A stretch of DNA of 64,000 nucleotides, taken from Patescibacteria group bacterium. GTDB taxonomy: Bacteria; Patescibacteriota; Microgenomatia; UBA8517. Where the stretch lies: the NCBI GenBank assembly GCA_036381415.1, contig DASVCV010000002.1:20091-84090 (forward strand), in the 5' to 3' direction. The notes under the pieces were generated by a model. It saw only the letters and a program-made list of their open reading frames with translations. It was not told the DNA's origin and made no database searches. This document shows, in pieces, positions 22,578 through 61,714 of the stretch; within the stretch, counting starts at the first letter, position 1, and each line of letters starts with the position of its first letter. A program made the position numbers and the translations under genes.

Positions 22578-25151
22578 GCTTTTATACTAAATTCTATGCT
22601 GGGGAAGAAATTTAAACAACTTATTATTCCCAAGAATCTCATTTTATCAGTTTTATTTGTACTTGGAGTAAGGCTTGCCTTTTCACTTCTTCCTAGTTTT
22701 CAGATAGATATGGGGACTTGGCTTGCATGGGCAGGAAGGCTTCGTGATTTAGGGTTTGATAAATTTTACTCTGACACTGTTTGGACTCAATATACTCCTG
22801 GATATTTGTATTGGCTTTGGGTTATGGGAAAGACAGGTATTATTTCAGAAGTTGCAATTAAACTACCAGTAATACTAGCTGATATTGGAGTGGGAGTAAT
22901 TATTTGGAATCTAGTCAGAAAGGTTGGCAAGAATACTGCACTTGCTGCATTTTTTGCATATACGCTTAATCCTGTTGTGATATTTAACGGATCAGTTTGG
23001 GGACAAATTGATGGGATATTTACTTTGTTTTTATTTTTGGCAGTTTATTTGATTAATGAGAAGAAAAGTGTTGTTTTGGGATGGAGTATGTGGGCAATTG
23101 CATTTTTAATAAAGCCGCAGGCTTTTGCTATTTTGCCTTTTCTAGTTCTAATAACTTTAAAGAAATATACTATTAAACAAATTCTAAAAGCAGGGATAGT
23201 TACCCTTCTTCTAATATTGGCACTTTCTATTCCATTTTTCCCAACCAATCCAATCTTTGGGTTACCAGATCTAATAAATAAAATGAGTCTTTACTATCCT
23301 TATACTTCTGTTTTTGCTTTTAATGTTTGGACTTTGGTTGGAATGTGGAAGGCAGACAGCACTACTTTTTTGGGAATACAGTATTTTTATATTGGAATTG
23401 GGATGTATGCTCTTTCACTGTTGTTTCTTTTTTGGAAATTTAGAAATAAATTGGATGAGCAAAAGATAGTTTATTTAGTTGTTGCACTTTCATGGATTGC
23501 TTTCTTTTTGTTTCCAACAAGAGTTCATGAAAGATATCTTTTCCCAGCATATGCATTTTTAATTACAGGATCAGCTCTTTCTAAATCAAAAGCATTATCT
23601 ATTTTTTATGTAGTACTTTCTTTTTTAAACTTTTTAAATTTATACCATCCATATGCCTACTATGCTCAGAATTATTTGGTTTCCAAATGGTTGCTTGATT
23701 TTACTGGGAGTGCTTCAGTTTCAATTGGAATTGGAACTTTCTTAATCTTTTTGGCAATTTCATTTAGCGAGAGATTTAAATTCTTGGAAAAAATAAATAT
23801 TTTCTCAAAGAAAAATAGACGTACAATAAAAAATGATTCTAAAGCGGGTAGATTAGGGAATATTTTTATGGGAGGTAAGGATTATGTATTGGGAATGAAA
23901 AATTTGGAAGTTAAGAAAGTAAATTTGCCTCATATTAAATTAACTAAAAAACAAATAAATATCCTTTTAGGAGTAGTAATTGCATTTTCTTTTGTAACAC
24001 GAGTATTTATGTTAGCTAATCCACCTCAGGAATATTTTGATGAGGTATATCATGCATTTACTGCAAGGCAAATGCTGCATGGAAATAAAATGGCTTGGGA
24101 GTGGTGGAACACACCCCCTGTTGGGTTTGCATATGAGTGGACACATCCACCTTTAGCTAAAGAAGGAATGGTTTTGGGAATGTTGGTATTTGGAGAAAAT
24201 CCATTTGGATGGAGAATACCTGGAGCACTTTTGGGGGTGGGAAGTGTAATACTTATCTACTTAATTGCCAGAAAACTTTTTGAGGATGATTTGGCAGGAG
24301 TACTTGCAGCAGGAGTATTTAGCTTAGATGGATTACCCCTTGTACTATCTAGGATTGGGATGAATGACAGCTACTTTTTATTTTTTGCGCTGACTTCAAT
24401 TTATTTTTACTTAGATAATAAAAATAGACTATTTAAAAATAGTAATAACTTTTTGGCTGCATTAACATTTGGGTTGTCCCTTGCTTCTAAATGGAGTGCT
24501 TTATGGGCCATTCCTATCTATGTTGCAATACATTTTCTTTTAAAGAGAAAATTAACTATCTCATATCTGTGGTTTTTGGTCTTACCTCCTTTAGTTTATG
24601 TTGCAACCTATATTCCCATGTTTATCAGCGGACATAATTTCTCAATATTTATTGAGATGCAAAAACAGATGTGGTGGTATCACACTAATTTGCGTGCCAC
24701 TCACCCGTACACATCTCCCTGGTGGAGCTGGCCATTTTTAGTCAGGCCAATCTGGCTTTATACAAGCGGAAGATTAGGAGACACTATTTCAAACATCTAT
24801 GCGATGGGGAATCCAGTTGTATTTTGGTTTGGATTAGGGGCAGTTGTTGTAACGGCAGTGAAAGGGTTAATGGAAAGGAGCAAGAAATTAATATTGGTTG
24901 CATTTGCATATTTAATTTTCTTTGTACCTTGGGCACTATCTCCAAGAATAATGTTTTTGTACCACTATCTTCCTTCAATTCCATTTTTGGCAATTGCAAC
25001 TGGGTATGTTTTAAGAAAGCATAAAGAACTCATTGCTCCTGTATTTATTGTAGGACTTGTTACTTTTATTTACTTTTACCCACATTTAATTGCAATGAAA
25101 GTTCCAGTTGTATTTGATTCTTCATACTATTGGTTTGATAGCTGGAGATAA
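22569..25151 (+). CDS. Fused 860-aa membrane glycosyltransferase. N-terminal GT-C/DUF2029-like half, C-terminal PMT (GT39) family protein O-mannosyltransferase-like half.
   Basis: The C-terminal half carries PPQEYFDEVYHAFTARQ (PMT DE motif) and a PMT_2-like distal region. 20+ TM helices overall. Overlaps the divergent GT-C gene start. Confidence 0.65.
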   Translation: MSHAFILNSMLGKKFKQLIIPKNLILSVLFVLGVRLAFSLLPSFQIDMGTWLAWAGRLRDLGFDKFYSDTVWTQYTPGYLYWLWVMGKTGIISEVAIKLPVILADIGVGVIIWNLVRKVGKNTALAAFFAYTLNPVVIFNGSVWGQIDGIFTLFLFLAVYLINEKKSVVLGWSMWAIAFLIKPQAFAILPFLVLITLKKYTIKQILKAGIVTLLLILALSIPFFPTNPIFGLPDLINKMSLYYPYTSVFAFNVWTLVGMWKADSTTFLGIQYFYIGIGMYALSLLFLFWKFRNKLDEQKIVYLVVALSWIAFFLFPTRVHERYLFPAYAFLITGSALSKSKALSIFYVVLSFLNFLNLYHPYAYYAQNYLVSKWLLDFTGSASVSIGIGTFLIFLAISFSERFKFLEKINIFSKKNRRTIKNDSKAGRLGNIFMGGKDYVLGMKNLEVKKVNLPHIKLTKKQINILLGVVIAFSFVTRVFMLANPPQEYFDEVYHAFTARQMLHGNKMAWEWWNTPPVGFAYEWTHPPLAKEGMVLGMLVFGENPFGWRIPGALLGVGSVILIYLIARKLFEDDLAGVLAAGVFSLDGLPLVLSRIGMNDSYFLFFALTSIYFYLDNKNRLFKNSNNFLAALTFGLSLASKWSALWAIPIYVAIHFLLKRKLTISYLWFLVLPPLVYVATYIPMFISGHNFSIFIEMQKQMWWYHTNLRATHPYTSPWWSWPFLVRPIWLYTSGRLGDTISNIYAMGNPVVFWFGLGAVVVTAVKGLMERSKKLILVAFAYLIFFVPWALSPRIMFLYHYLPSIPFLAIATGYVLRKHKELIAPVFIVGLVTFIYFYPHLIAMKVPVVFDSSYYWFDSWR

Positions 25152-25290: not shown

Positions 25291-26019
25291 TTAGAGAGCT
25301 AGTATTACTGCTCCTATTAGAAGGACTATACCTCCTGCAATTGCAAGCCAGGTTGGAGTTGATACTCCAGCTTGTGGAAGAGCAGGTGCAGGGGTTGCCA
25401 CTGTTGGTTTTGGTGTTGCAACTACAGTGGGAGTTGGGGTGGCAAGTGCGACAGGCGTAGGTGTTGGAGTTGCGCATACGCAAGTTGTGCTTGTAGTACA
25501 TGATGGGTTTCTACAAACACCTGTAGTTCCAGAAGTTATATAGCAGGTCATTCCAGACTGACAGTTTGCATCAGATCCGCAAGTTCCACCGCATGCATTG
25601 GGTACCCCTGGCGTTGCAGTAGGAGTTGGAGTTGCAGTCGGGGTTGGTGTTGCAGTTCCTGAGGGAGTAGGAGTTGGAGTTGCAGTTGCAGCAGTAATGG
25701 CAAAACTTGTTGTGCAGATACTTGAAGTGGCTGCACATGCACCATTTACGATGTTTTGTCCTGAAGGACAACAATAAACTGTTGAACCATTAGCTGGACT
25801 TATACAAGAAGTAGAGCCTGCAATGCTGGTTGCATTACAATTTAATCCTGCAGCACATTGTTCTGCTGCTCCAGGTTTACTGGTGGGTGCAGTTGGTGCA
25901 ACTGATTCTTGTCTTAACTGATATAGCCTTAAAGCAGTAAATACTGCAATTCCTGCAAGAATTACAGTTGCTCCTAGTATTAATATTGTTACTAAATTTT
26001 TCTTTACAAATGCTTGCAT
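25291..26019 (-). CDS. Cys-rich, Pro/Thr-linker-rich surface protein B2. N-terminal signal-anchor, C-terminal LPQAG sorting signal plus hydrophobic tail.
   Basis: N-terminus MQAFVKKNLVTILILGATVILAGIAVF. 22 Cys, (TPTP)n linkers, an 8-Cys module NACGGTCGSDANCQSGMTCYITSGTTGVCRNPSCTTSTTCVCA. C-terminus LPQAGVSTPTWLAIAGGIVLLIGAVILAL. Confidence 0.6.
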   Translation of the reverse strand: MQAFVKKNLVTILILGATVILAGIAVFTALRLYQLRQESVAPTAPTSKPGAAEQCAAGLNCNATSIAGSTSCISPANGSTVYCCPSGQNIVNGACAATSSICTTSFAITAATATPTPTPSGTATPTPTATPTPTATPGVPNACGGTCGSDANCQSGMTCYITSGTTGVCRNPSCTTSTTCVCATPTPTPVALATPTPTVVATPKPTVATPAPALPQAGVSTPTWLAIAGGIVLLIGAVILAL

Positions 26020-26023
26020 ATTA

Positions 26024-27520
26024 TTAGAACCATTGGTTTAGAACTTGATGATGTAATTGTCCTGAAACTGTGAAATTGGTGATATTTGTTGGTATTGTGT
26101 ATTCTTCATAGAAATCAGCACTGCTTGGACGCTTAGTGGCTACTTCAGGTTGCAAGGTTCCATTAATAGTGAATCTTGCTTTATCAAATACTCCAGAGGT
26201 TGTTGTACCTGTAAGTGTAAAGCGTATTTTATCTCCTGGTTTTAAAGCCGAAAGCTGAGTTGTGGTTAGAGGATTCCAGTTAGTGTCATAAATTTGTATT
26301 CCAGTGCATGTTGCGGTTGGAGTTGGACCACAGGCTTGTTGTACTTCAGCAGCGGTTGGGTTTGCTCCTGATGAGTTAAGAACATATGAGTTTCCTTGGT
26401 CACGAGCAACGCAGTTATTTGTTGTCCATCCAGTAGGAAGTGTGTCTGGGACGCAATATGTGGTGTTGTTTGTCCCTGTTCCTACTGTACAACTTGGTCC
26501 AACTATGTATCTACAAACTGAGCCTGTTTGACAAAGGCCAAGAGATGCACTGCATGGATTTCCACAGGCATTTAGGCTACTGCAGTCGCAGTTTCTTCCA
26601 GGAATGGTTTTTCCAATACAGCTTGCATTTTGACAGATCCCTGCAACGCATGTAACAGTTCCACCATTTCCTGCAGCAGCGCAGTCACTTGTTTGAGTAC
26701 ATGCCTGTCCACAGGTTGGTTTAGGAGTGGGAGTAGGTGCTGATCCACCTGCACAAGTTGAAGGATTCCAAACACATGCTCCTTGGGGATTTCTTTGACA
26801 TTCCGAGCCTCTTTCTCCTACACCTGCTTCAACACAAGAGCAGCTTCCGCAAGCTCCCCATCCTGGCTGGATTGTTGGAGCTGGGGCTGTTGAACTTGTT
26901 GGAGTAGGTGAAGGTGGGACATAACCGCTTGTGCTACATTGTCCAGATGTAGCTGCGGGACAACCAGACTGGCATCCACAAGAGCTGTTTTGGGATACAC
27001 AATTTACAGTTCCGTCAGAATTGTAGAAACAATTATCGCATTTGTTTGCATTGAATTTATCTCCACATCCAGCAAATCCTCCAGGAGTGTTGTTTGATGC
27101 TCCGCCACAGGCGTCAAGTCTAACACAAGGTCCGTAAGTGTTGTTTGCTTGGCATACTACTCCTGTTCCAGCTCCATTACATTCAATACAGGATTGTTCA
27201 CCTGGGTTAACACATGATGCTCCTGGTGCTGCGCCTCCACCAGCTGCCTTCTGTTTAAAAATTTGCTGTTGTTGAACTAGGAGTAGTCCTGCTCCAACTC
27301 CTACTACTAAGAGAACTAGTCCAAGAATGGTTGGAATGAGTGCCCTTCTTCTGGGTGACGGTGGGGCAAAGTCTGTTTGTGGTGGAGTTGTAATGTTAGT
27401 GTCAGCTGGTCCTCCTGCACCTGTTTCAGGAGGAGTTTCTGTTGGAAAAGTTGGATTTGTCCCTGGGTCACTTGGCGCGATTGTGTTGGTGGAATTTTGA
27501 GGGCTGGTATTATCTTGCAT
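26024..27520 (-). CDS. Large Cys-rich surface protein A2. N-terminal Pro/Thr-rich segment plus signal-anchor, about 45 Cys, and a conserved C-terminal beta-rich domain.
   Basis: PRRRALIPTILGLVLLVVGVGAGLLLV anchor. Many CxC / CxxC disulfide-type spacings. The C-terminal IYDTNWNPLTTTQLSALKPGDKIRFTLTGTTTSGVFDKARFTINGT domain is shared with the 28342..30033 ORF. Confidence 0.6.
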   Translation of the reverse strand: MQDNTSPQNSTNTIAPSDPGTNPTFPTETPPETGAGGPADTNITTPPQTDFAPPSPRRRALIPTILGLVLLVVGVGAGLLLVQQQQIFKQKAAGGGAAPGASCVNPGEQSCIECNGAGTGVVCQANNTYGPCVRLDACGGASNNTPGGFAGCGDKFNANKCDNCFYNSDGTVNCVSQNSSCGCQSGCPAATSGQCSTSGYVPPSPTPTSSTAPAPTIQPGWGACGSCSCVEAGVGERGSECQRNPQGACVWNPSTCAGGSAPTPTPKPTCGQACTQTSDCAAAGNGGTVTCVAGICQNASCIGKTIPGRNCDCSSLNACGNPCSASLGLCQTGSVCRYIVGPSCTVGTGTNNTTYCVPDTLPTGWTTNNCVARDQGNSYVLNSSGANPTAAEVQQACGPTPTATCTGIQIYDTNWNPLTTTQLSALKPGDKIRFTLTGTTTSGVFDKARFTINGTLQPEVATKRPSSADFYEEYTIPTNITNFTVSGQLHHQVLNQWF

Positions 27521-27597
27521 TTAATTTTTTATGAATATGAAGCTAGTCATTTCTAGCCCTATACCCATCATAGAAAGAGCTAGAGCTGGTGTCAAGT
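27521..27597 (-). pseudogene. Remnant copy of the 3' end (sorting-signal-encoding tail) of the 30045..31382 gene. It marks the junction of the tandem duplication.
   Basis: Translates to ...LTPALALSMMGIGLEMTSFIFIKN*, cf. ...DLTPTLALSMMGIGLVVTSFILWKKLEI* at the true gene end. About 70 nt of DNA are near-identical to 30069..30130. Confidence 0.55.
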
Positions 27598-27615
27598 AAA
27601 TTGTTTGTAAATTCT

Positions 27616-28332
27616 TTAGAGAGCAAGTATTACTGCTCCTATTAGAAGGACTATACCTCCTGCAATTGCAAGCCAGGTTGGAGTTGATACTCCAGCTTGG
27701 GGAAGAGCAGGTGCAGGGGTTGCAACTGTTGGTGTAGGAGTTGCAACTGCAATAGGTGTAGGAGTTGGGGTTGGTGTTGCACATACGCAAGTTGTGCTTG
27801 TAGTACATGATGGGTTTCTACATACTCCTGTAGTTCCAGAAGTTATATAACAGGTCATTCCAGATTGACAGTTTGCATCAGATCCGCAAGTTCCATTACA
27901 TGCATTTGGTGCTCCAGGTGTTGGAGTAGGAGTGGGTGTAGGAGTTGGAGTTGGTGTAGGTGTAGCTGTTGCACAAACACAGTTTGAGTTTGATGCACAG
28001 GATGGATTTACACAGATGTTGTTTCCAGATACTGTTTGGCAAGTTAGACCAGTTGGACAATTTGATTGACCACCTGGAGTAGTACAAGCTTCATAGCATT
28101 GAGGTACTGGTGTAGGAGTAGGAGTTGGTGTTTCAGCAGTAAGTGTAAAGGACAGTGCTTGGCAAGCAGGGTTTACTTGAGCACCTGGATTACTAGTAGG
28201 AGCAGCAGGAGAAACAGACTCTTGTCTTAACTGATATAGCCTTAAAGCAGTAAATACTGCAATTCCAGCAAGTATTACAGTTGCTCCTAGTATTAATATT
28301 GTTACTAAATTTTTCTTTACAAATGCTTGCAT
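27616..28332 (-). CDS. Cys-rich, Pro/Thr-linker-rich surface protein B1 (paralog of B2). Two copies of the 8-Cys module and an LPQAG sorting signal.
   Basis: N-terminal 40 aa and C-terminal about 95 aa are identical or near-identical to B2. The first domain is replaced by a second 8-Cys module (CYEACTTPGGQSNCPTGLTCQTVSGNNICVNPSCASNSNCVCA). Confidence 0.6.
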   Translation of the reverse strand: MQAFVKKNLVTILILGATVILAGIAVFTALRLYQLRQESVSPAAPTSNPGAQVNPACQALSFTLTAETPTPTPTPVPQCYEACTTPGGQSNCPTGLTCQTVSGNNICVNPSCASNSNCVCATATPTPTPTPTPTPTPTPGAPNACNGTCGSDANCQSGMTCYITSGTTGVCRNPSCTTSTTCVCATPTPTPTPIAVATPTPTVATPAPALPQAGVSTPTWLAIAGGIVLLIGAVILAL

Positions 28333-28341
28333 ATTATTTTT

Positions 28342-30033
28342 TTAATTCCATGTATTTAACGCTGCATGGTGAATTTGTGCTGTTACTGTGAAACTTGTTA
28401 CACCTACTGGAATTGTGTACTCATCATAGAACTCTTGAGTTGCTGCTGGTTTGGTTGTTGTTACTTCTGGTCTTAAGGTTCCATTAATAGTAAATCTTGC
28501 TTTATCAAATACTCCAGATGTGGTTGTTCCAGTTACAGTAAATCTAACCTTGTCTCCTGCTTTAAGAGCTGATAATTGAGTGGTTGTAAGCAGATTCCAG
28601 TTTGTGTCATATGCTTTTACAGCCTGACATTGTGCAGTGGAAGGAGCGGTTGATCCAGGAGGGTTGGTTGGTGTTGTTCCTCCACCAGTAGTTGGAGTAG
28701 TTGGTGCTTCAATGGTGCCAGCTGGTGCGGCGCAGGACTGGCGGTCGGCATCGTATGAACAAGATATGGTTCCATTGTTGCAGAAGCAGTCGTAATTGCT
28801 TGGTTGGTTGTAATGGTCACCGCAACCTGCAAATCCTCCACTGCCGACTGTGCGGCCATCATATACTCTACATGTGTTGCCAGTAGTTGGGGGAGTGCTC
28901 CCATTACAAGTGTGTGTTGTTTCGTTACAATCACCGCTTAAACAACTTGTGTCGTATATACAAGTTGCTCCGTCTGGCCTGTTGCCGATCTCACCGCAGC
29001 GGTCTGTACGGATACAATCCCATTGACCAAGAGCGTTACAGTATGCTTGTTGAGTTGGACCTGCGCCTCCTGCTGGTTCTCCGTTTGCACCACTACAGTC
29101 TCCGCAAGCTTTTCTGTCTCCTGTGGTACATACTCTTCCTGTAGCATTTGAATAACCTCCGCAGGCTATTAATGTACCAGCGTTGCCGTAGCAGACTTTC
29201 TGTCCGGATTTAACTGTTCCTGCAATACAGGTAATACAATGAAGTGGACTTGAGCAGTTTGCATCTGAGGTACAAGTATCGCCTTCCCCACCTGTTGTTG
29301 TGCCTCCTGGAGTTGTACCTCCGCCGCTGGTGGTTGCAGTTGGACAGCTTTCACCTGCTGGACAACATCTACCTAGATAGCTTCCATTAGATTGTTGACA
29401 ACCTGCACCTGGATATACATAAGTCCATCCTGTAGCTGGGCATTGTCCACGATCAGAACCACTTGATCCAGTACACCAAGCACCTGCAGGAGCCGTTGGT
29501 TGAGTTCCTCCACTACTTGGTTGAGAACACATGCCAAGAGTGTTGCTGCATCCAACTGCAGATCCTCCACCACCTGAACAGTTCCAGTTGTAGTTTCCAG
29601 GACATTCTCCTCTATTACCTACTCTACAATCTCCAGTACACCAGCCGCCTGCTCTTTGATTTAGAAGCTGTTGTCTTTGAGTAAGTGCTAATCCTGCTCC
29701 AACTCCTACTACTAAAAGAACTAATCCAAGAATTGTTGGAATGAGTGCCCTTCTTCTTGGTGAAGGAGGGGCAAAGTCTGTTTGTGGCGGGGTTGAAATT
29801 CCAGAATCAGGTGGAACTCCTCCTCCATTGCCTGTATCTTGTGGTGTTTCTGTTGGGAAGGTTGGACTTGTATCTGCTGGTTGAGTGGTAGTTGTGGTTG
29901 TTGTTTCTGTAACTGTTACAGGTGGTACAGATAATGGCTGGTCTGTAAGAGTTGGTGGAGTACTCGTACTTTGATCAGTAGGAAATGTAGGATTAGTAGA
30001 AGTATTTTGTTGATTTAGAGTACTATCTTGCAT
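28342..30033 (-). CDS. Large Cys-rich surface protein A1 (paralog of A2).
   Basis: Same N-terminal anchor (PRRRALIPTILGLVLLVVGVGAGLAL) and C-terminal domain as A2. A different Cys-rich central region of about 50 Cys, and a longer poly-Thr N-terminal segment. Confidence 0.6.
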   Translation of the reverse strand: MQDSTLNQQNTSTNPTFPTDQSTSTPPTLTDQPLSVPPVTVTETTTTTTTQPADTSPTFPTETPQDTGNGGGVPPDSGISTPPQTDFAPPSPRRRALIPTILGLVLLVVGVGAGLALTQRQQLLNQRAGGWCTGDCRVGNRGECPGNYNWNCSGGGGSAVGCSNTLGMCSQPSSGGTQPTAPAGAWCTGSSGSDRGQCPATGWTYVYPGAGCQQSNGSYLGRCCPAGESCPTATTSGGGTTPGGTTTGGEGDTCTSDANCSSPLHCITCIAGTVKSGQKVCYGNAGTLIACGGYSNATGRVCTTGDRKACGDCSGANGEPAGGAGPTQQAYCNALGQWDCIRTDRCGEIGNRPDGATCIYDTSCLSGDCNETTHTCNGSTPPTTGNTCRVYDGRTVGSGGFAGCGDHYNQPSNYDCFCNNGTISCSYDADRQSCAAPAGTIEAPTTPTTGGGTTPTNPPGSTAPSTAQCQAVKAYDTNWNLLTTTQLSALKAGDKVRFTVTGTTTSGVFDKARFTINGTLRPEVTTTKPAATQEFYDEYTIPVGVTSFTVTAQIHHAALNTWN

Positions 30034-30044
30034 CTTTTATTTTT

Positions 30045-31382
30045 TTATATTTCTAACTTTTTCCAAAGTATGAAGCTAGTCACTACTAGCCCTATACCCA
30101 TCATAGAAAGAGCTAGAGTAGGAGTCAAGTCACCAGACACTGGAATGGCACTCCCCGTGGCTGGAAGAGTAATTCTTGTTGTCCCAGATGTTGTTGAAAC
30201 AGGGGTTGGAGTTGGTGTTGGAATGGGAGTGGGTGTTGGAATAGGTGTAGCAGAACCAGATGCAACAAAAGCTGGTCCTTCAGAAGCTTGAACAACAAAT
30301 GTTTTTGTTAAGGTTTGCAGAATTCCTTGGGCGTCTGTCCAGGAAACTGAAAGAGTGTGAGTTCCTGGATCTAGATTTGCAGGTGGATTCCAGGTCCAGG
30401 TTCCATCAGCAGCAGCTGTAACTGTTGCCGTTTGGGGAGTGGACCTGACAGTAATAGTAATTTTTGTATTAGGAGTGGCAGTTCCCATGATTTGAGGTTT
30501 AGCAGTGGAAATTATTTCGCCATCTTTGATACTTGTAACGGTTACAGTTTTTGTTGTTCCTGAGGTTGTAGCAGTATTTCCTAAGTTAAAACCTGCTGAT
30601 GAAGTTGCTGTGTCAGGCAAATTAAGATTTGATTGAGGATTTCCTCCTTCGGTGTTACCAGGATTACTTCTAAAATCATATGTTTGTCCAAGTTTGATAA
30701 CAGGAGTTGGGTTGGCTGATTTAGGATAGATTTGAGCAGTTGAGACTCCACTTACTCCACCTTGAACAAAAATTTGAAGAAGAGTGGAGTCTGGGGAAAT
30801 AGTTGCATAACTTGTGAGATCTGGTTTAAGTGCAGTGCTAATTGGAATTACCCAATTACCGTTAGCTGAAGTTAAGGCAGACATTGGGTTAAATCCAGTT
30901 CCATTTACATAGACCAGAACTTCTGGAGCTGGAAGGCCACCTGCATCTTCAACTGTTCCTGATATCAAGATCTGAGTAGGAAGAGTGGATGTTGTTTGTG
31001 AGGCAGTTTGGGTGTTCCAAGGGATTCCTGAGTTGTCATAATCAGAGCCAGCTGAATTAATTTTAAAATAGTAGGGAGTTGATGGACTTAAGGTAGTTAC
31101 TTGGACCCAATGAATGGTGGTAGCAGTTTGGGAAGCAAGTGTTGTCTGGCTTAAACTGTCTTGACTTACCCCATATTTGACATATCCAACGGTTGGTTTG
31201 TCAGTAATCCAAGAAATTGCAAAAGAAGAGGAAGATTGGTTTGTTATTCTTACATCTTGGGGTGCAACATCAGGAGAAGCACCAAGCTTAAATTGCTTGG
31301 ATGTTGCAACAAGAAAAATACCTGCTCCCATACCAAGTACAAGAACTAGTATTCCTATTAGTGTTGGGATTTTCCCTCTCAT
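30045..31382 (-). CDS. LPXTG-anchored multi-domain surface protein (Fn3-like, CarboxypepD_reg-like and Ig-like domains, PT-rich stalk).
   Basis: N-terminal signal MRGKIPTLIGILVLVLGMGAGIFLV. Fn3-like region SFAISWITDKPTVGYVKYG...YYFKINSAG. Ig-like region DGTWTWNPPANLDPGTHTLSVSWTD. (PTPTPIPTPTPTP) stalk. C-terminal LPATG plus hydrophobic segment plus KKLEI, a canonical sortase signal. Confidence 0.65.
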   Translation of the reverse strand: MRGKIPTLIGILVLVLGMGAGIFLVATSKQFKLGASPDVAPQDVRITNQSSSSFAISWITDKPTVGYVKYGVSQDSLSQTTLASQTATTIHWVQVTTLSPSTPYYFKINSAGSDYDNSGIPWNTQTASQTTSTLPTQILISGTVEDAGGLPAPEVLVYVNGTGFNPMSALTSANGNWVIPISTALKPDLTSYATISPDSTLLQIFVQGGVSGVSTAQIYPKSANPTPVIKLGQTYDFRSNPGNTEGGNPQSNLNLPDTATSSAGFNLGNTATTSGTTKTVTVTSIKDGEIISTAKPQIMGTATPNTKITITVRSTPQTATVTAAADGTWTWNPPANLDPGTHTLSVSWTDAQGILQTLTKTFVVQASEGPAFVASGSATPIPTPTPIPTPTPTPVSTTSGTTRITLPATGSAIPVSGDLTPTLALSMMGIGLVVTSFILWKKLEI

Positions 31383-31717
31383 GGCGTGGTTCCTCCTGGA
31401 GTTGCTGACTGACTGGCAATTGGAGTTGCTGACTCACTTGCAACGGGTGTTGCAACAGGTGTTGGGGTAGGAAGAGTGGATGCAGTAACGGTATTATTTC
31501 CGATCTGGTCATCACTAAGGTACATTCTTTGTTGTAATTTATTTAGAGCAGCTACGTCAAGAGTGGGATTTAAGGGTGCAACAATTTCAGCAGGTACTGG
31601 GGGAGAAGGCTTTATAGTTAGGGTTCTATAAACCTCAAAAGCAATCCAGAAAAAGATTGTGATTAGGGTAATTATTGCAAGAGTTACTCCTGCTGGTGTT
31701 TTTATTCCTCTTTTCAT
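31379..31717 (-). CDS. Membrane-anchored Pro/Thr-rich protein co-transcribed with pilN/pilO. Possible pilus-associated component.
   Basis: 112 aa: N-terminal TM (MKRGIKTPAGVTLAIITLITIFFWIAF), then a PT/ATP-rich low-complexity tail. ATGA start/stop overlaps with both neighbouring genes. Confidence 0.45.
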   Translation of the reverse strand: MKRGIKTPAGVTLAIITLITIFFWIAFEVYRTLTIKPSPPVPAEIVAPLNPTLDVAALNKLQQRMYLSDDQIGNNTVTASTLPTPTPVATPVASESATPIASQSATPGGTTP

Positions 31718-32379
31718 TTTGTTTGGGCTGTTTGAGCTTCCTGGTAAGGGGCTCTTCCTTCTATGGTTAGATATAAATTTTTAACATTATCAATTTCTGT
31801 TGCAGTAAAATTTAGACTGTCAAAGACAAGAGGACGTCTTAAAAGTTCAATATCTGCAAGGAATGTTGAGATGGTGTTGTAGTCGCCTGCTACTGAAATA
31901 GATACTCCAACCCCTGAACTTCCTTGCGGAAGAGTTTTTCTTTGATCAGGGGGACCTGCAAGAACAGGGGAAGTCCCTGCAAGAGTTATTTGTTCACTTC
32001 CTATGTTTTGAGTAACAACATTATCTTTTTTAATTACTCCTTCAATTTGGCGGATGTATTGACCAAGAGATGGAGATGTGGGAACTGCATCAGAAAGAAG
32101 AGCAATATTTGCCTGTTGGGATGCAAGAATACTCTGAGCTTGCTGAAGGTTTAGGATTTTAGCATCCATTTGTTCTATGGTTTTTTGCTTTTCATTAATT
32201 TCTGTTAAGAGGTTAGAGATGGTAAGGGCAGTTGGCTTAATGGCAAAGATTGAAAAAAGGCCAATAGTAACTATGGAAAGTAGAAGCTCAAGAAAGGCTT
32301 TTAAGTCTGGCCTTCTTTTGTAAAGAGCCATTAAGTTAAATAGATACTGTTGTCCTCTAAAGTAGCTTTTAGGTCCCAT
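31714..32379 (-). CDS. pilO: Type IV pilus assembly protein PilO.
   Basis: Basic N-terminus plus one TM and a coiled coil. C-terminal ISVAGDYNTISTFLADIELLRRPLVFDSLNF is similar to the PilO core. Start uncertain: 32379 or 32331, while the ORF track gives 32484. Confidence 0.65.
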   Translation of the reverse strand: MGPKSYFRGQQYLFNLMALYKRRPDLKAFLELLLSIVTIGLFSIFAIKPTALTISNLLTEINEKQKTIEQMDAKILNLQQAQSILASQQANIALLSDAVPTSPSLGQYIRQIEGVIKKDNVVTQNIGSEQITLAGTSPVLAGPPDQRKTLPQGSSGVGVSISVAGDYNTISTFLADIELLRRPLVFDSLNFTATEIDNVKNLYLTIEGRAPYQEAQTAQTK

Positions 32380-32953
32380 TTGGTTTAGGCGTAGCTGCCA
32401 CTCCTTTCTGTGTAGCAAGAACTTGGAAAGTGATATTGCCTGTTGTTTGGTCAATTGTGGTTTGAGTAAGAGATACTTTATCAAACATATTTGGGATTGC
32501 TTTTAAGTTTGCAATAAATGTACCTGCTCCAACTTCTGAGGTGGAAGTTGCTCTAATTTCAACTGCAGATGCATCTACTGAAAGAAATGTTATTTGGACA
32601 GTATCAGGAAGAGCAGTTGTTAGGGTTTGAAGAAGAGGAATGTATTTGCTTTTGTCATATGCAACAGAAGAGAAAATGGCTAACTCTTTTTGAGCTTCTC
32701 TAAAGTTCTTTTCAACTTGGGCATATGAGGTAATAACTGCCTTTTTTTGATTTATAGCTTCTGTTAGGTCGCTTACTTTGGAGTCAAGCCAGAATCTAGA
32801 GAGAAATGCTCCCATTACGACCATTTCAGTTGCAATGACAATGAGCCTAAATGAAGAAATAAGCCATCTAAAAATTCTTCCTAGAGTGGATGATTCGAAC
32901 TCTTCTTGTGGAAGAAGATTGATCCTTGGTTCTTTAGTGTTGCGGGCAGCCAT
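32369..32953 (-). CDS. pilN: Type IV pilus assembly protein PilN.
   Basis: The hallmark N-terminal INLLP motif (PRINLLPQEE), a single TM, a coiled coil and a C-terminal ALPDTVQITFLSVDASAVEIRATS region. Confidence 0.75.
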   Translation of the reverse strand: MAARNTKEPRINLLPQEEFESSTLGRIFRWLISSFRLIVIATEMVVMGAFLSRFWLDSKVSDLTEAINQKKAVITSYAQVEKNFREAQKELAIFSSVAYDKSKYIPLLQTLTTALPDTVQITFLSVDASAVEIRATSTSEVGAGTFIANLKAIPNMFDKVSLTQTTIDQTTGNITFQVLATQKGVAATPKPNGT

Positions 32954-58784: not shown

Positions 58785-61031
58785 ATGGAAGAACATTTTT
58801 GGTCTTTAGCTCTTGAAACCGGCTGGGTGCAGGCGGCTATTTGGACGATTAAAGAAAAAGAAGCACATGTTGTTGCAGTTTCAAATGCAGTTGCTTGGGA
58901 AAGTGATGAAGACTTACTTAGTGCCTGTGACACAGTTCTTTCTTCCATAGTTTCAGGACTAGCTGAAAATGCAAAGGAACCTTCTAAGACTGTATTTGGT
59001 GTTCCACCTGGATGGGTAGGAGAAGGGCAAATTAAAAAAGAATATTTAGATAGAATTAGAAATATATGCCACAAATTATCTCTTGAACCTTCTGGGTTTG
59101 TAGTACTGCCTGAAGCTATTGCTCATTTCAAAAAATCTGAAGAGAATGCACCTGTTTCTGGAGTAATTGTTGGAGTAGGAACAGATGCATTAGATATTAC
59201 TGTTGTTAGACTTGGAACAATTATTGGAACAGTTAATGTGGGAAGAAGTTTGTCTGTTTTAGATGATGTTGTTGAAGGAATTGCAAGGTTTGGGGGGGCA
59301 GAGCCATTTCCTTCAAGATTTTTAATATATGATGGGAAGAGTGCTGAATTGGAAGATGTAAGGCAGGAACTTATAAAAGCGGATTGGACAGGTGAGCTTA
59401 AAACAAAAGCTAAGTTTCTTCATACTCCACAGGTGGAAATAGTTGATCCAAAAATGAAAATGGTTGCAGTGAGTCTAGCTGGAGCTAGTGAAATAGGGCA
59501 GGCAAATGTGGTTACTTTTGATTTGGGAGAAGAAAAGGCTGAAAAACTAAAAGAGGAAAAGCCAGAAATAAAAGTAGAACAACCTAAAGAGGATTTGAGT
59601 TCTCATGAGAATTTGAGTGAGGTGGCAAAAGCTACTGATTTTGGTTTTGTAATGGATCAAGATATAAATGAAGTTGCAGGTGCAACAAATCCTAACCCAG
59701 TTCAGACTTCAGCCAATACTCCTAGTTTTGTAACTTCTCCTCATCCAGTTTCTAACCCTTTTCCTCGTAATCCAATTAGTAAAATCAAGCATAATATAGT
59801 AAGGTTACCTTTGATTTTAAGCGGAGCTTGGCCGCTTTCAGCGGTGAAAGGAAAAATGGATCAAAGAAATAAAATTAGCATGCCTGGTGGAGAAGCTAGA
59901 AAGAAAATGCCTATTATTTTGGCAATAGCTGGGGCAGCTCTTTTGATATTTGGATTTATTGGATGGTGGTTTTTACCAAAAGCTGAAGTGACTATTTTTG
60001 TTTCTCCAAAAAAGATTGAACAAAAGCAGCTTATAACATACGATCCAAAACTTACTGATCCTGATATTTCAAAAAGACAACTTCCTATTTCAACTGTTTC
60101 CACTTCAGTAAGTGGAGATAAGACAAAATCTACAACTGGGACTTTAACTATTGGGGATAGGGCAAAGGGATCAGTTGTTATTAGAAATGGAGGATCAGAT
60201 GATATTGGTCTTACAGCTGGAACAATTTTAACAGGACCAAATAGTCTTAAATTTAGTCTTGATAATGGAGCTTCTGTTTCTGCTGCAACATCCCCATCAA
60301 ATCCTGGAACTGCAACAATTTCTGTAACAGCTTCTGGGATTGGAGCAGAATACAATTTGGCTAAGGGAGAAACACTTCAGGTGGGGAATTTTTCAAAAAG
60401 CCAGGTGGATGCTTTAGTGGATTCAGATTTTTCAGGTGGGTCAAGCCAGGAAGTGGTTGCAGTTTCCAAAGATGATTTATCAGTTTTGCAGAAAGATTTA
60501 ACTAGTGAATTGACTGAAAAAGCTCAAAACCAATTAAAGGAAAAACTTGGGGATGATGAGATACTGCTTGATCCTGCTACGATTGCAACAGCTTCTGGAA
60601 TAACTTATGATCATGTTGCAGGGGATCAGGCTTCAACACTTAAACTTAGTGAGAACTTAAGCCTTACCAGTTATGTAGTTTCAAAAAAGAATTTAGGGAA
60701 TTTGGCTAGGGATATTGTAAAAGGACAGGTGCCTAATGGGTTTGTTGTTAAGGATGATCAGATAAGTACTAATTTTGATACAAAATTGGGATTAGTTGAT
60801 GGAGTGTGGAAGCTAGATACTACATTTAATGTTAATTTGTTACCACAGATTAATACTGATGATATTGCTAAAAAAATTGCAGGCAAATCTCAAAAAGCAG
60901 CGCAAGAAATATTATCTAGGATAGCAGGTTATGTGAGAGCTGAGATACACCTGACAAAAGGTTTTCCCAGCTTTGGTACTTTACCTCATGTTGTTAAAAA
61001 TATTTCTGTTGAGTTGTCCTCAGAAAAATGA
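58785..61031 (+). CDS. Bitopic protein: N-terminal actin-like (ASKHA, PilM/GspL-cytoplasmic-domain-like, degenerate) domain, one TM, and a about 340-aa extracytoplasmic Thr/Ser-rich beta domain.
   Basis: SLALETGWVQA and VIVGVGTDALDITVVRLGTIIG resemble the phosphate-1 and phosphate-2 regions of the actin fold with substitutions. TM at about aa 385-405. ATGA overlap with the sortase gene. Confidence 0.45.
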   Translation: MEEHFWSLALETGWVQAAIWTIKEKEAHVVAVSNAVAWESDEDLLSACDTVLSSIVSGLAENAKEPSKTVFGVPPGWVGEGQIKKEYLDRIRNICHKLSLEPSGFVVLPEAIAHFKKSEENAPVSGVIVGVGTDALDITVVRLGTIIGTVNVGRSLSVLDDVVEGIARFGGAEPFPSRFLIYDGKSAELEDVRQELIKADWTGELKTKAKFLHTPQVEIVDPKMKMVAVSLAGASEIGQANVVTFDLGEEKAEKLKEEKPEIKVEQPKEDLSSHENLSEVAKATDFGFVMDQDINEVAGATNPNPVQTSANTPSFVTSPHPVSNPFPRNPISKIKHNIVRLPLILSGAWPLSAVKGKMDQRNKISMPGGEARKKMPIILAIAGAALLIFGFIGWWFLPKAEVTIFVSPKKIEQKQLITYDPKLTDPDISKRQLPISTVSTSVSGDKTKSTTGTLTIGDRAKGSVVIRNGGSDDIGLTAGTILTGPNSLKFSLDNGASVSAATSPSNPGTATISVTASGIGAEYNLAKGETLQVGNFSKSQVDALVDSDFSGGSSQEVVAVSKDDLSVLQKDLTSELTEKAQNQLKEKLGDDEILLDPATIATASGITYDHVAGDQASTLKLSENLSLTSYVVSKKNLGNLARDIVKGQVPNGFVVKDDQISTNFDTKLGLVDGVWKLDTTFNVNLLPQINTDDIAKKIAGKSQKAAQEILSRIAGYVRAEIHLTKGFPSFGTLPHVVKNISVELSSEK

Positions 61032-61714
61032 GAAGTAGTTTCTTCGTAAAAATACTAGCTATTGCTTGTGGAATAGGTGGAGTTGGAATTTTGGCTTGGG
61101 TTTTTTTACCAATCTTTTTTTATGAGTTTACTGCACCACCACTAATGTCTTATCTATCTCCACTTCCTGATAACACTCAAGCTGCAAATAGTACTAACGG
61201 AAGCTTTGATGATACTAAGGCAAGCAACTGGTTTGTGGGATCTAATCCATCTGATTTTAAAAAAGGAAGTGTTACTTTTTATAACTTATCAATTCCGAGA
61301 TTAGGAATTTCTGATGCTGTAGTTGCAGTTGGAGGAGAGGATTTATCACAATCTTTAATTCAATATCCTGGAACTGCCTTACCAGGCAGACCTGGGAATG
61401 CTACAATTTTTGGACATTCGGTACTTCCTCAGTTTTATAGTGCTACAAACTATCTAACTATTTTTTCAGACTTACCTAGCTTACAAAAGGGAGATGGAAT
61501 AAGTATAAGATCTGATGGAATAAGTTATGAATATAGAGTGGAGGAAAAATTTGAAGTACTACCTACTGATGTGCAAGTGCTAGAGCAAAATTTAAGTGAT
61601 TCATTTTTAACTTTGGTTACTTGTGTTCCACCTGGAGATCCAAGACGTCCAAGAAGGCTTATAATAAGGGCAAGGATTGTTCCTTTGCAAAATACAAATA
61701 CGGGACAGAATTAA
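61028..61714 (+). CDS. Sortase (transpeptidase) family protein.
   Basis: N-terminal TM. TIFGHSV (catalytic His), LTLVTCVPPG (TLxTC catalytic Cys) and a downstream Arg-rich region (DPRRPRR). Confidence 0.8.
   Translation: MRSSFFVKILAIACGIGGVGILAWVFLPIFFYEFTAPPLMSYLSPLPDNTQAANSTNGSFDDTKASNWFVGSNPSDFKKGSVTFYNLSIPRLGISDAVVAVGGEDLSQSLIQYPGTALPGRPGNATIFGHSVLPQFYSATNYLTIFSDLPSLQKGDGISIRSDGISYEYRVEEKFEVLPTDVQVLEQNLSDSFLTLVTCVPPGDPRRPRRLIIRARIVPLQNTNTGQN

What the first reader, a model, noticed from the sequence alone, without database searches (positions are those of the whole stretch)
25291..31382. Sortase-type C-terminal signals: canonical LPATG on the Fn3/Ig protein, non-canonical LPQAG on both B proteins
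The 445-aa protein ends with LPATG plus a hydrophobic helix plus KKLEI, a textbook cell-wall sorting signal. B1 and B2 both end with ALPQAGVSTPTWLAIAGGIVLLIGAVILAL, i.e. LPxAG plus a hydrophobic segment but no basic tail, and they also carry an N-terminal signal anchor.

A sortase with an intact TLxTC/His active site is encoded at 61028..61714 in the same window. The system is unusual for two reasons: a variant LPQAG motif lacking the charged stop-transfer tail, and proteins anchored at both ends, which suggests processing or release rather than simple wall anchoring.
Basis: partly seen in the sequence, partly recalled or inferred. Interest (0 to 1): 0.6.

Follow-up and report, generated by a model that had tools for sequence, protein, structure and literature searches.

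The report
Variant sortase sorting signal in Microgenomates

Summary
The sequences are as described. B1 and B2 end in ALPQAG plus 24 hydrophobic residues with no basic tail. The 445-aa Fn3/Ig protein ends in LPATG…TM…KKLEI. A catalytically intact sortase lies about 33 kb away.

Comparison with about 300 relatives changes the picture. Both protein families share one extended C-terminal domain, in the same register: [LIV]-P-x-[T/S/A]-G, x3, P-T, x6, G, then a hydrophobic stretch.

- In the B family, position 4 is Ala or Ser (about 90%). The protein stops exactly 24 residues after the Gly, with no charge.
- In the Fn3 family, position 4 is Thr, Ser or Ala, and a W-K/R tail follows.
- In the window's Fn3 protein the family-conserved motif is IPVSG (residues 413-417), not LPATG (406-410). 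Close orthologues read LPATQ, LPATD or LPASS at that upstream site.

B proteins also carry a near-invariant N-terminal membrane module. The genes sit in an operon (rpsT-pilN-pilO-X-Fn3-A-B) conserved across Woesebacteria/Microgenomates. The sortase sits in a separate conserved locus (alaS-X-srt-ruvX-mltG).

Best reading: these are substrates of the single housekeeping sortase, using a previously undescribed variant sorting signal. No Pfam or NCBIfam model, and no paper in the library searched, describes it. Processing itself is inferred, not shown.

The parts
25291..26019 (-). B1, 242 aa. Layout: N-terminal membrane module, Cys-rich domains, PT linkers, tail-less sorting domain.
   Evidence: ORF. 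231 homologues. AlphaFold2 predicts helices at 2-37 and 221-241 and a confident small disulfide-rich domain at 140-180.
25294..25380 (-). B1 C-terminal sorting domain, L214-L242. The LPQAG motif is at 25366-25380, followed by VSTPT and a 19-residue hydrophobic end with no charged tail.
   Evidence: TIGR01167 scores 14.0 bits against a cut-off of 15.9.
25867..26019 (-). B1 N-terminal module, residues 1-51: KK, TM (…LAGIAVFTA), RLYQLRQ, then VAPxAPxSxPxA.
   Evidence: Invariant G23, L32, V40, P42, P45, S47, P49 and A51. A profile of this module alone finds 562 representative clusters, always at the N-terminus.
26024..27520 (-). A1, 498 aa. Layout: long Pro/Thr-rich cytoplasmic N-terminus, TM, Cys-rich ectodomain, C-terminal beta-sandwich. 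It has no sorting signal.
   Evidence: AlphaFold2 model of the C-terminal domain has pLDDT 82.7.
27521..27600 (-). Non-coding remnant of the 3' end of the Fn3 gene. It marks the boundary of the tandem A-B duplication.
   Evidence: the repeat finder family D7. Sequences read.
27616..28332 (-). B2, 238 aa, a paralogue of B1. Its sorting domain is at 27619-27705 (LPQAG at 27691-27705) and its N-terminal module at 28180-28332.
   Evidence: The DNA repeats D1, D4 and D5 are 83-92% identical to B1.
28342..30033 (-). A2, 563 aa, a paralogue of A1.
30045..31382 (-). Fn3/Ig protein, 445 aa. Layout: N-terminal TM, PAP-N/fn3 domain, CarboxypepD_reg-like region, Big_13 domain, PT linker, sorting domain with a basic tail.
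   Evidence: Pfam hits. Orthologues found in 68 of 83 related loci.
30048..30146 (-). Family-conserved sorting domain of the Fn3 protein: IPVSG (30132-30146), then DLTPT, a hydrophobic helix and WKKLEI.
   Evidence: G417 is invariant; P414, L419, T422 and G429 are at least 90% conserved. Register-anchored profile.
30153..30167 (-). It is a genome-specific variant of a subclade box LP[AS]Tx. It is not conserved as a sortase motif.
   Evidence: Orthologues read LPATQ, LPATD, LPASS, LPSTQ or LPSTE at this position.
31379..31717 (-). X112, a 112-aa bitopic protein (TM plus Pro-rich region) and a conserved operon member.
   Evidence: Present in 74 of 83 loci.
31714..32379 (-). PilO-like protein. 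The likely start is M36 of the mechanical ORF that begins at 32484.
   Evidence: Pfam PilO scores 22.0 bits, equal to the cut-off. The start matches orthologue L001.
32369..32953 (-). PilN, with the N-terminal INLLP motif.
   Evidence: Pfam PF05137 scores 29.8 bits against a cut-off of 22.8. Annotated the same way in L001 and L003.
61028..61714 (+). Sortase with an N-terminal TM. H130 is at 61415-61417, C199 at 61622-61624 and R210 at 61655-61657.
58785..61031 (+). Conserved 748-aa membrane protein of unknown function. Its stop overlaps the sortase start.
   Evidence: The same alaS-X-sortase-ruvX-mltG arrangement occurs in L084, L085 and L086. Alignment.

Best explanation
B1, B2 and the Fn3/Ig protein are substrates of the single housekeeping sortase of this Woesebacteria/Microgenomates-type bacterium.

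The signal. They carry a lineage-specific cell-wall sorting domain: [LIV]-P-x-[T/S/A]-G, three residues, P-T, then a glycine-containing hydrophobic helix.

Proposed sequence of events (inferred):
1. The proteins are exported by Sec and held in the membrane.
2. The membrane-anchored sortase cleaves between the fourth residue and Gly. That residue is Ala in B1/B2. In the Fn3 protein it is Ser of IPVSG.
3. The sortase transfers the new C-terminus to the peptidoglycan precursor.

FemAB-type branch-building enzymes, MurJ, an LCP enzyme and MltG are all encoded nearby.

The two flavours. The Fn3 family keeps the classical basic stop-transfer tail. The B family has lost it and ends exactly 24 residues after the Gly. 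I infer that B's highly conserved N-terminal membrane module is not removed. It would then hold the precursor in the membrane, making the tail dispensable. Mature B would be a PT-linker 'strap' joined covalently to the wall at one end and embedded in the membrane at the other.

Context. The proteins belong to a conserved envelope operon headed by PilN and a PilO-like protein, so they probably form wall-spanning accessories of that complex.

Shown versus inferred. Shown here: the conservation, register, distribution, synteny and enzyme integrity. Inferred: cleavage, the acceptor, retention of the N-terminal anchor and the link to PilN/PilO function.
For: 1. Motif position and conservation. The motif's first residue lies exactly 29 residues from the end in 192 of 219 B-family proteins, against 0.1 in shuffles. 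L(-4) and P(-3) are 96% conserved, and position -1 is Ala 49% or Ser 40%. P(+4) is 96% conserved, T(+5) 90% and G(+12) 96%. The protein ends at +24 in 178 of 191. There is no K, R or H in the last 8 residues.

2. The unrelated Fn3 family has the same register, P(-3) G(0) P(+4) T(+5) G(+12). Its position -1 is Thr 48%, Ser 40% or Ala 11%, followed by W(+23) and K/R(+24). Many orthologues are canonical (LPATG, LPVTG, LPETG, LPITG). 17 of 40 match the curated LPXTG_anchor model TIGR01167 (best E = 0.0018).

3. Profile-profile comparison of the two C-terminal domains gives 93.3% probability and E = 2.7e-7, gapless. The control against the B N-terminal helix gives 0.6%.

4. The same tail-less signal sits on other passenger proteins with different N-termini: L065:2756-3859, L029:10572-11243 and L080:10613-11401.

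5. The sortase is intact. Pfam scores it 86 bits. His, Cys and Arg are invariant, and homologues are 55-60% identical across the group. It is the only sorting-type enzyme found among the roughly 50 window ORFs of 110 aa or more that were scanned against Pfam.

6. Sortase and B lie on the same contig about 30 kb apart in a relative, GCA_040960095.1 (554 kb versus 584 kb). The same is true in the window.

7. Sortase is near-ubiquitous in Microgenomates (PMC6744442). This is the clade to which the 79 B-family genome loci belong.

8. There is precedent for Ala or Ser at position 4: SasF LPKAG is wall-associated (PMC3398289), and LPXAG and LPXSG surface proteins exist (PMC7137321).

9. The window has a cell-wall context: two FemAB genes, an LCP gene, a PMT gene, MurJ and MltG.
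Against: - There is no experimental evidence of cleavage or wall linkage in any Patescibacterium.
- The B signal lacks two classical features, Thr at position 4 and the basic tail. It stays below the TIGR01167 cut-off (14.0 versus 15.9 bits), and only 4 of 42 family members match at all.
- The sortase is never within 10 kb of the operon in 83 loci. It reaches no NCBIfam class cut-off, so its specificity is unknown.
- The conserved Gly pattern (GxGxG…G) and fixed length of the B helix would also fit a permanent, specifically packed transmembrane helix.
- Some Fn3 orthologues lack the L/I/V-P (TPETG, YDSG, IDAG) or lack the whole C-terminal region.
- Whether the N-terminal module is cleaved could not be tested.
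Confidence: 0.6

Rival explanations
1. The C-terminal helix of the B proteins is a permanent second membrane anchor and is never cleaved. LPx[AS]G-xxxPT would be a conserved juxtamembrane turn. B would be a two-helix hairpin protein whose N- and C-terminal helices pack with each other or with PilN, PilO or A.
For: - B has no basic tail and no Thr, and stays below the TIGR01167 cut-off.
- The helix has invariant or near-invariant glycines at +8, +10, +12 and +18 and a fixed 24-residue length.
- The signal is almost always paired with a conserved N-terminal helix rich in small residues (LAGxAxFTA). 89 of 122 new representatives found with the N-module alone also carry it, and most of the rest are fragments.
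Against: - The same motif in the same register occurs on the unrelated Fn3 family, with canonical LPxTG variants and a basic tail.
- It also occurs on proteins with other N-termini.
- L, P and G, the classical sortase determinants, are the most conserved positions, while the linker before them is not conserved.
Confidence: 0.2
2. The signal is processed by the sortase, but the conserved N-terminal module is a specialised cleavable signal peptide, analogous to YSIRK-G/S signals of cocci. Mature B would then be an ordinary wall-anchored protein, not a membrane-to-wall tether.
For: - The N-module is always at the extreme N-terminus and has the n-region plus h-region shape.
- Conserved special-purpose signal peptides paired with LPXTG are known; the YSIRK case is from established knowledge.
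- All envelope proteins here share a '…[KR]x[KRQG]A' box after the helix, which could be a processing site.
Against: - The positions after the helix (F-T-A; P-x-A) do not fit the classical -3/-1 rule for signal peptidase I. This comes from reading the sequence and was not run through a predictor.
- Conservation extends about 20 residues beyond the helix (V40…A51), which is unusual for a discarded peptide.
- Related carriers have 30-160-residue cytoplasmic extensions before the helix, which is typical of signal anchors.
- Without a tail or an N-anchor, the precursor would have little to retain it in the membrane.
Confidence: 0.25
3. The domain is recognised by a different sorting enzyme (exosortase/archaeosortase-like, rhomboid-like or an unknown protease) encoded elsewhere in the genome. 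The sortase would serve other substrates.
For: - The sortase is unlinked to the operon.
- A few B members give weak hits to ArtA-dependent S-layer glycoprotein models (E = 0.0014-0.08).
- Motifs such as LPDSG or VPDSG recall the VPDSG-CTERM class. This is from memory and no model hit supports it.
Against: - No exosortase, archaeosortase, rhomboid or CPBP family was found among the roughly 50 window ORFs of 110 aa or more that were scanned against Pfam.
- No PEP-CTERM or PGF-CTERM type model matches either family beyond noise.
- Those signals normally carry a basic tail too.
- The best-matching curated model for the Fn3 family is the LPXTG anchor.
Confidence: 0.07
4. The sortase polymerises these proteins into a covalent pilus-like fibre, as class C sortases do with Gram-positive pilins.
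For: The genes lie in a pilus-associated operon (PilN, PilO-like). The proteins are modular with Ig-like and small disulfide-rich domains.
Against: - There is no conserved lysine in the conserved parts of B. K48 varies among K, Q, I, V, E and T.
- No pilin-motif or class C sortase model reaches its cut-off.
- The sortase sits in a housekeeping locus, not next to the substrates.
Confidence: 0.05

Closest known systems
Classical LPXTG cell-wall sorting signal and class A housekeeping sortase (S. aureus SrtA; NCBIfam TIGR01167)
   Same: A pentapeptide with L-P at positions 1-2 and G at position 5, followed by a C-terminal hydrophobic helix. A membrane-anchored Cys/His/Arg transpeptidase is encoded away from its substrates. 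The Fn3-family version often has Thr and a basic tail.
   Different: Position 4 is Thr, Ser or Ala (Ala or Ser in about 90% of B proteins). There are extra conserved positions: P-T at +4/+5 and G at +12. The B flavour has no charged tail and a fixed 24-residue length. The sortase reaches no class cut-off; its best match is class E at 49.8 bits against a cut-off of 160.
S. aureus SasF (LPKAG) and the LPXAG/LPXSG proteins of S. haemolyticus
   Same: Natural sortase-type motifs with Ala or Ser instead of Thr. They are reported on the cell surface or wall (PMC3398289, PMC7137321).
   Different: Those are rare exceptions in genomes dominated by LPXTG, and they keep the basic tail. Here Ala/Ser is the family norm across hundreds of clusters.
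YSIRK-G/S signal peptide paired with LPXTG in staphylococci and streptococci
   Same: A conserved N-terminal element systematically co-occurs with a C-terminal sortase signal on otherwise unrelated passenger domains.
   Different: YSIRK signals are cleaved, and their conserved part lies in the n-region. The B module is conserved through the whole helix and 20 residues beyond it, and it is probably retained.
Class E sortases with LAXTG substrates (Actinobacteria), and class D (C. perfringens SrtD, PDB 4D70)
   Same: A lineage-specific housekeeping sortase paired with a lineage-specific variant motif. The closest sequence matches to the window sortase are class E (NCBIfam) and 4D70 (47.6 bits).
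   Different: The variant position differs: position 2 in LAXTG, position 4 here. Sequence similarity is far below the class thresholds.
PGF-CTERM/archaeosortase A S-layer glycoproteins; PEP-CTERM/exosortase
   Same: A Thr/Pro-rich, probably glycosylated linker followed by a short motif and a C-terminal helix that is removed by a dedicated enzyme.
   Different: The motif is different, a basic tail is present, and the enzyme family is different. No model hit or enzyme was found here.

Membership tests
LPXTG cell-wall sorting signal (TIGR01167) | L-P-x-T-G pentapeptide near the C-terminus | tested here: not met
   B1 and B2 have LPQAG. In the B family, position 4 is Ala 49%, Ser 40% and Thr 3%. 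The window Fn3 protein has LPATG, but at a non-conserved site; the conserved site reads IPVSG.
LPXTG cell-wall sorting signal (TIGR01167) | Hydrophobic membrane-spanning segment after the motif | tested here: met
   About 19 hydrophobic residues follow in both families. AlphaFold2 predicts a helix at 221-241 in B1.
LPXTG cell-wall sorting signal (TIGR01167) | Positively charged tail at the extreme C-terminus | tested here: not met
   B family: no K, R or H in the last 8 residues, and 74 of 75 genome copies have no charged tail. Fn3 family: met, with a basic tail in 55 of 57.
LPXTG cell-wall sorting signal (TIGR01167) | Score at or above the curated HMM cut-off (15.9 bits) | tested here: not met
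   B1 and B2 score 14.0 bits. Only 4 of 42 B members match even at E <= 1. The window Fn3 protein gives no hit. 17 of 40 Fn3 orthologues match, with a best E of 0.0018.
LPXTG cell-wall sorting signal (TIGR01167) | A sortase encoded in the same genome | tested here: met
   The window encodes one at 61028-61714. Sortase and B are on the same contig in GCA_040960095.1.
LPXTG cell-wall sorting signal (TIGR01167) | Cleavage after position 4 and amide linkage to peptidoglycan | not testable with these tools
   This needs proteomics or an enzyme assay.
Sortase (Pfam PF04203, peptidase C60) | Domain score above the gathering threshold and a catalytic His, Cys (TLxTC) and Arg | tested here: met
   86.1 bits against a threshold of 26.6. 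H130, T198-C199 and R210 are invariant in 32 homologues. The sequence aligns to PDB sortases.
Defined sortase classes A-F (NCBIfam class models) | Score at or above the class cut-off | tested here: not met
   Class E scores 49.8 against 160, class C 46.8 against 160, class D 35.1 against 165, and class F 21.9 against 166.
Sortase-assembled pilins | Conserved pilin-motif lysine and an adjacent pilin-specific (class C) sortase | tested here: not met
   There is no conserved Lys in the conserved regions of B. No sortase lies within 10 kb of the operon in 83 loci.
Type IV pilus alignment proteins PilN/PilO (operon context) | Pfam PilN and PilO domains; PilN N-terminal INLLP motif | tested here: met
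   PilN scores 29.8 bits against 22.8 and its INLLP motif is visible in the sequence. PilO scores only 22.0 bits, exactly at the cut-off. No PilB, PilC, PilT or PilM is in the window.
PEP-CTERM / PGF-CTERM (exosortase / archaeosortase) signals | PEP or PGF motif plus TM plus basic tail, with the cognate enzyme present | tested here: not met
   Only noise-level NCBIfam matches to such models appear in either family. No such enzyme is among the scanned window proteins. The rest of the genome was not available.

The most novel reading that the evidence does not exclude
Microgenomates use a previously undescribed two-part sorting system: a conserved, retained N-terminal membrane module plus a tail-less LPx[A/S]G domain of fixed length. 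A sortase with relaxed Thr/Ser/Ala specificity processes the domain. This turns B-type proteins into covalent membrane-to-peptidoglycan tethers. These tethers belong to a clade-specific PilN/PilO-associated envelope complex, so sortase would physically couple a pilus-type machine to the wall.
Probability: 0.3. Interest if true: 0.7.

Novelty: new variant of a known kind. Interest (0 to 1): 0.5.

Why it matters
- Annotation. Hundreds of Woesebacteria/Microgenomates 'hypothetical proteins' would become recognisable as wall-sorted proteins. A profile of the B N-module alone finds 562 clusters at 50% identity. The sorting motif of the sortase that is near-ubiquitous in this uncultured clade would be defined.
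- Cell biology. The operon (pilN-pilO-X-Fn3-A-B) and the sortase locus (alaS-X-srt-ruvX-mltG) give concrete, testable parts of the poorly understood cell envelope of ultrasmall bacteria.
- Mechanism. A signal that works without the basic stop-transfer tail would qualify the textbook model of sortase sorting.
- Biotechnology. A natural sortase that accepts Ser or Ala at position 4 would be a candidate orthogonal ligase. LPXSG-specific enzymes have so far come from engineered sortase mutants (PMC9782347).

Tried and rejected
1. Pilin-motif idea. The Lys in '…SKP' of the B N-module is not conserved, so this was rejected.
2. The Pam pilus of CPR bacteria (bioRxiv 10.64898/2026.03.03.709456). It has a different operon, different proteins and donor-strand assembly, so it is not this system.
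3. Is the A C-terminal domain a PilP or GspC-HR homologue? The AlphaFold2 model is good (pLDDT 82.7), but Foldseek against the PDB gives only non-significant generic beta-sandwich hits. The best are Wzt carbohydrate-binding domains at E about 0.03. No link to PilP or GspC was found.
4. The B Cys-rich domain. It is confidently folded, but the only matches are weak ones to knottin-like and Draxin-like domains (E = 0.13).
5. The N-domain of the 748-aa sortase partner looked actin-like by eye.
7. Sortase next to substrates. No sortase lies within 10 kb in 83 loci, so gene adjacency gives no support.
8. Only the window and fetched 20-kb loci were available. In the window there is one sortase and three signal-bearing proteins.
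9. Literature. No paper in the library pairs LPXTG with CPR, Patescibacteria or Microgenomates. CPR papers mention sortase only in passing.

Full report
**What is in the window**

On the minus strand, eight genes run head to tail with tiny gaps or overlaps:

| Gene | Coordinates | Notes |
|---|---|---|
| PilN | 32953-32369 | Pfam 29.8 bits; INLLP motif |
| PilO-like | 32379-31714 | Pfam 22.0 bits, exactly at the cut-off |
| X112 | 31717-31379 | 112-aa bitopic protein |
| Fn3/Ig protein | 31382-30045 | 445 aa; Pur_ac_phosph_N/fn3 and Big_13 domains |
| A2 | 30033-28342 | |
| B2 | 28332-27616 | |
| A1 | 27520-26024 | |
| B1 | 26019-25291 | |

B1 and B2 end ALPQAGVSTPTWLAIAGGIVLLIGAVILAL*. The Fn3 protein ends TLPATGSAIPVSGDLTPTLALSMMGIGLVVTSFILWKKLEI*.

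A motif scan of all stop-to-stop reading frames of 60 codons or more found a C-terminal LPxxG-plus-helix pattern in these three genes. The only other match was a spurious antisense ORF.

A sortase is encoded at 61028-61714 (PF04203, 86 bits). No NCBIfam sortase class model reaches its cut-off; the best is class E at 49.8 bits against 160. The closest solved structure is the class D sortase 4D70 at 47.6 bits. In 32 homologues the G-H130-S, T198-C199 and R210 positions are invariant.

The factual part of the finding therefore holds.

**The B family**

B1 has 231 database homologues, named Patescibacteria or Woesebacteria where named at all. Of the best 120:

- 117 carry [LIV]PxxG near the end.
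- Position 4 is Ala in 58, Ser in 50, Thr in 7 and Val in 2.
- Exactly 24 residues follow the Gly in 111 of the 117.
- The last three residues are LAL in 82.
- None has K, R or H in the last eight residues.

An unbiased alignment of 42 members (44-86% identity to B1) has invariant P215, G218, P222 and G230. The Pro/Thr linker just before these positions is not conserved.

The positional test is decisive. The motif's first residue lies exactly 29 residues from the end in 192 of 219 proteins, against 0.1 in composition-preserving shuffles. Elsewhere in the proteins the motif occurs at the chance rate.

**The N-terminal module**

The same proteins share a remarkably conserved N-terminus: K/R, then …LAG[IV]A[IV]FTA, then xRLYQLRQxxVAPxAPxSxPxA. 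G23, L32, V40, P42, P45, S47, P49 and A51 are invariant. AlphaFold2 predicts a single helix at residues 2-37.

A profile of these 51 residues alone, searched against 1.84 billion representative proteins, finds 562 clusters. The module is always at the N-terminus. Of the 122 new representatives, 89 also have the tail-less signal, and 86 of those have 24 residues after the Gly. Most of the rest are fragments. Three or four instead carry the A-type C-terminal domain.

The middle parts vary: knottin-like 8-Cys domains, DUF11 and VWA. The B 'family' is therefore really an N-terminal module plus a C-terminal signal flanking exchangeable passenger domains.

**The Fn3 protein: which motif?**

A scan of one genome per species returned 79 loci, almost all Woesebacteria or Microgenomates. 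Orthologues of the Fn3 protein occur in 68 of the 83 loci then held.

Their C-termini have the consensus [LIVT]-P-x-[T/S/A]-G-[D/S/N]-L-T-P-T, then a hydrophobic stretch, then W-K/R-x-x-E. In a 40-sequence alignment G417 is invariant, and P414, L419, T422 and G429 are at least 90% conserved.

That stretch is IPVSG-DLTPT in the window protein. The LPATG eight residues upstream (406-410) belongs to a subclade box LP[AS]Tx. That box reads:

- LPATQ in the closest relative (L001),
- LPASS in L088,
- LPATD in L014,
- LPSTQ or LPSTE in others.

The window protein gives no hit to the curated LPXTG_anchor model, whereas 17 of 40 orthologues do (best E = 0.0018). 'Canonical LPATG' is therefore most likely a coincidence of one Gly. 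I cannot exclude that this particular organism also uses it.

**One signal, two flavours**

The two families were anchored on the Gly and compared position by position:

| Position | B family | Fn3 family |
|---|---|---|
| -4 | L 96% | L, I, V or T |
| -3 | P 96% | P 92% |
| -1 | A 49%, S 40% | T 48%, S 40%, A 11% |
| 0 | G | G |
| +4 | P 96% | P 92% |
| +5 | T 90% | T 94% |
| +12 | G 96% | G 94% |
| End | stops at +24 | W at +23, K/R at +24, then about 4 more residues |

hhalign of the two 30-40-column profiles gives 93.3% probability and E = 2.7e-7, gapless and in register. The control, the B N-terminal helix against the Fn3 tail, gives 0.6%.

The tail-less form also occurs on other proteins with different N-termini. 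Examples are L065:2756-3859 with LPATG-FLTPT…LAL*, and two Cys-rich proteins with an A-type N-terminus and 30-50-residue cytoplasmic extensions.

A common short signal on unrelated passengers is the signature of a sorting signal rather than of a structural element.

**Genomic context**

The order MurJ(-) / rpsT-pilN-pilO-X112-Fn3-A-B / PMT(-) recurs in most of the 83 loci. The exact full order occurs in 37, and PilN, PilO and X112 are present in 73-74.

The window differs by a tandem duplication of A-B. A remnant of the Fn3 3' end sits between B2 and A1 (27521-27600), which shows that the duplicated unit began inside the Fn3 gene.

No sortase lies within 10 kb of the operon in any locus. The sortase has its own conserved locus: alaS, a protein of about 700 aa of unknown function, sortase (overlapping start), ruvX, mltG.

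In a relative with a 750-kb contig, the sortase and the B gene are about 30 kb apart, as in the window.

The window also encodes two FemAB-family enzymes, an LCP enzyme and PMT-type glycosyltransferases. MurJ is called at the syntenic position beside the operon in relatives. This is a peptidoglycan and envelope neighbourhood. Roughly 50 window ORFs of 110 aa or more were scanned against Pfam, and no other sorting enzyme was among them.

**Interpretation**

The simplest account is that the single housekeeping sortase recognises this lineage-specific domain. Published work finds this sortase near-ubiquitous in Microgenomates (PMC6744442). The sortase would cleave before the Gly and attach the proteins to peptidoglycan.

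Ala or Ser at position 4 has natural precedent (SasF LPKAG, PMC3398289; LPXAG and LPXSG proteins, PMC7137321). The equal use of Ser in both families argues for an enzyme that accepts small residues there.

The missing tail in B is the real oddity. I infer that the conserved, probably uncleaved N-terminal anchor retains the precursor. That would make the tail dispensable and would leave a covalent membrane-to-wall strap.

These steps are inferred. Nothing here shows cleavage. The main rival, a permanent second membrane helix with conserved glycines, cannot be excluded.

**Known or new?**

Neither Pfam nor NCBIfam has a model for the B, A or X112 families or for this signal. Papers on CPR bacteria mention sortase only in passing. 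No paper in the searched library pairs LPXTG with these lineages. The recently described Pam pilus is a different system.

I therefore rate this as a new variant of a known kind, of moderate interest.

Noticed in passing
window 27521-27600 (minus strand): A non-coding remnant of the last ~25 codons of the Fn3 gene (…LTPALALSMMGIGLEMTSFIFIKN*) lies between B2 and A1. The A-B pair therefore arose by a ~2.3-2.5 kb tandem duplication that started inside the Fn3 gene's 3' end. The B1 and B2 termini are 91-92% identical at the DNA level, while their middles differ.
   Followed up: yes
window 58785-61031 (+); L084:5993-8008; L085:2692-4827; L086:824-2995: A conserved 670-750-aa membrane protein with no family assignment always precedes the sortase, and its stop overlaps the sortase start. 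It has a conserved ~245-aa cytoplasmic domain, a TM helix and a ~350-aa outer domain. The pair is inserted into the widespread alaS-ruvX-mltG cluster. It may be a sortase partner.
   Followed up: partly
window 22569-25151 (+) and 21453-22577 (-); 59 of 83 related loci: A PMT-family protein O-mannosyltransferase gene lies convergent to B almost everywhere. The Pro/Thr-rich linkers of X112, Fn3, A and B, and the invariant Ser47 in the B N-module, are candidate O-glycosylation sites.
   Followed up: no
window B1 residues 100-110 and A1 26027-26401; alignments A1 and A8: B proteins have a conserved short 'CxxLxFTL' strand just after the N-module. A proteins end in a confidently predicted Ig-like beta-sandwich (pLDDT about 93). 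A and B are always adjacent and were duplicated together, which suggests they interact. A few proteins fuse the B N-module directly to the A-type sandwich (P0274, P0354, P0355).
   Followed up: partly
N-termini of window A1, A2 and Fn3; L065:2756-3859; L029:10572-11243; L080:10613-11401: All these envelope proteins share the same style of N-terminus. A glycine-rich TM helix (…ILGLxLLVGGxGAGxxLV) is followed by a Gln/Arg-rich stretch ending …[KR]x[KRQG]A (QRQEIRKRA, QQQQIFKQKA, SKQFKLGA). This may be a clade-specific anchor or processing box.
   Followed up: no
window 7783-9207 and 9149-10222 (minus strand): The methionyl-tRNA synthetase ORF is overlapped upstream by an ORF with weak LAGLIDADG endonuclease and HTH matches. 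This may be a homing endonuclease or intein-related insertion.
   Followed up: no
window 56971-58308 and 58311-58736 (+): The alanyl-tRNA synthetase core is only 445 aa. It is followed immediately by a separate 141-aa ORF with no Pfam hit. One relative (L085) has a single 595-aa gene that includes tRNA_SAD, so the gene here may be split or truncated.
   Followed up: no
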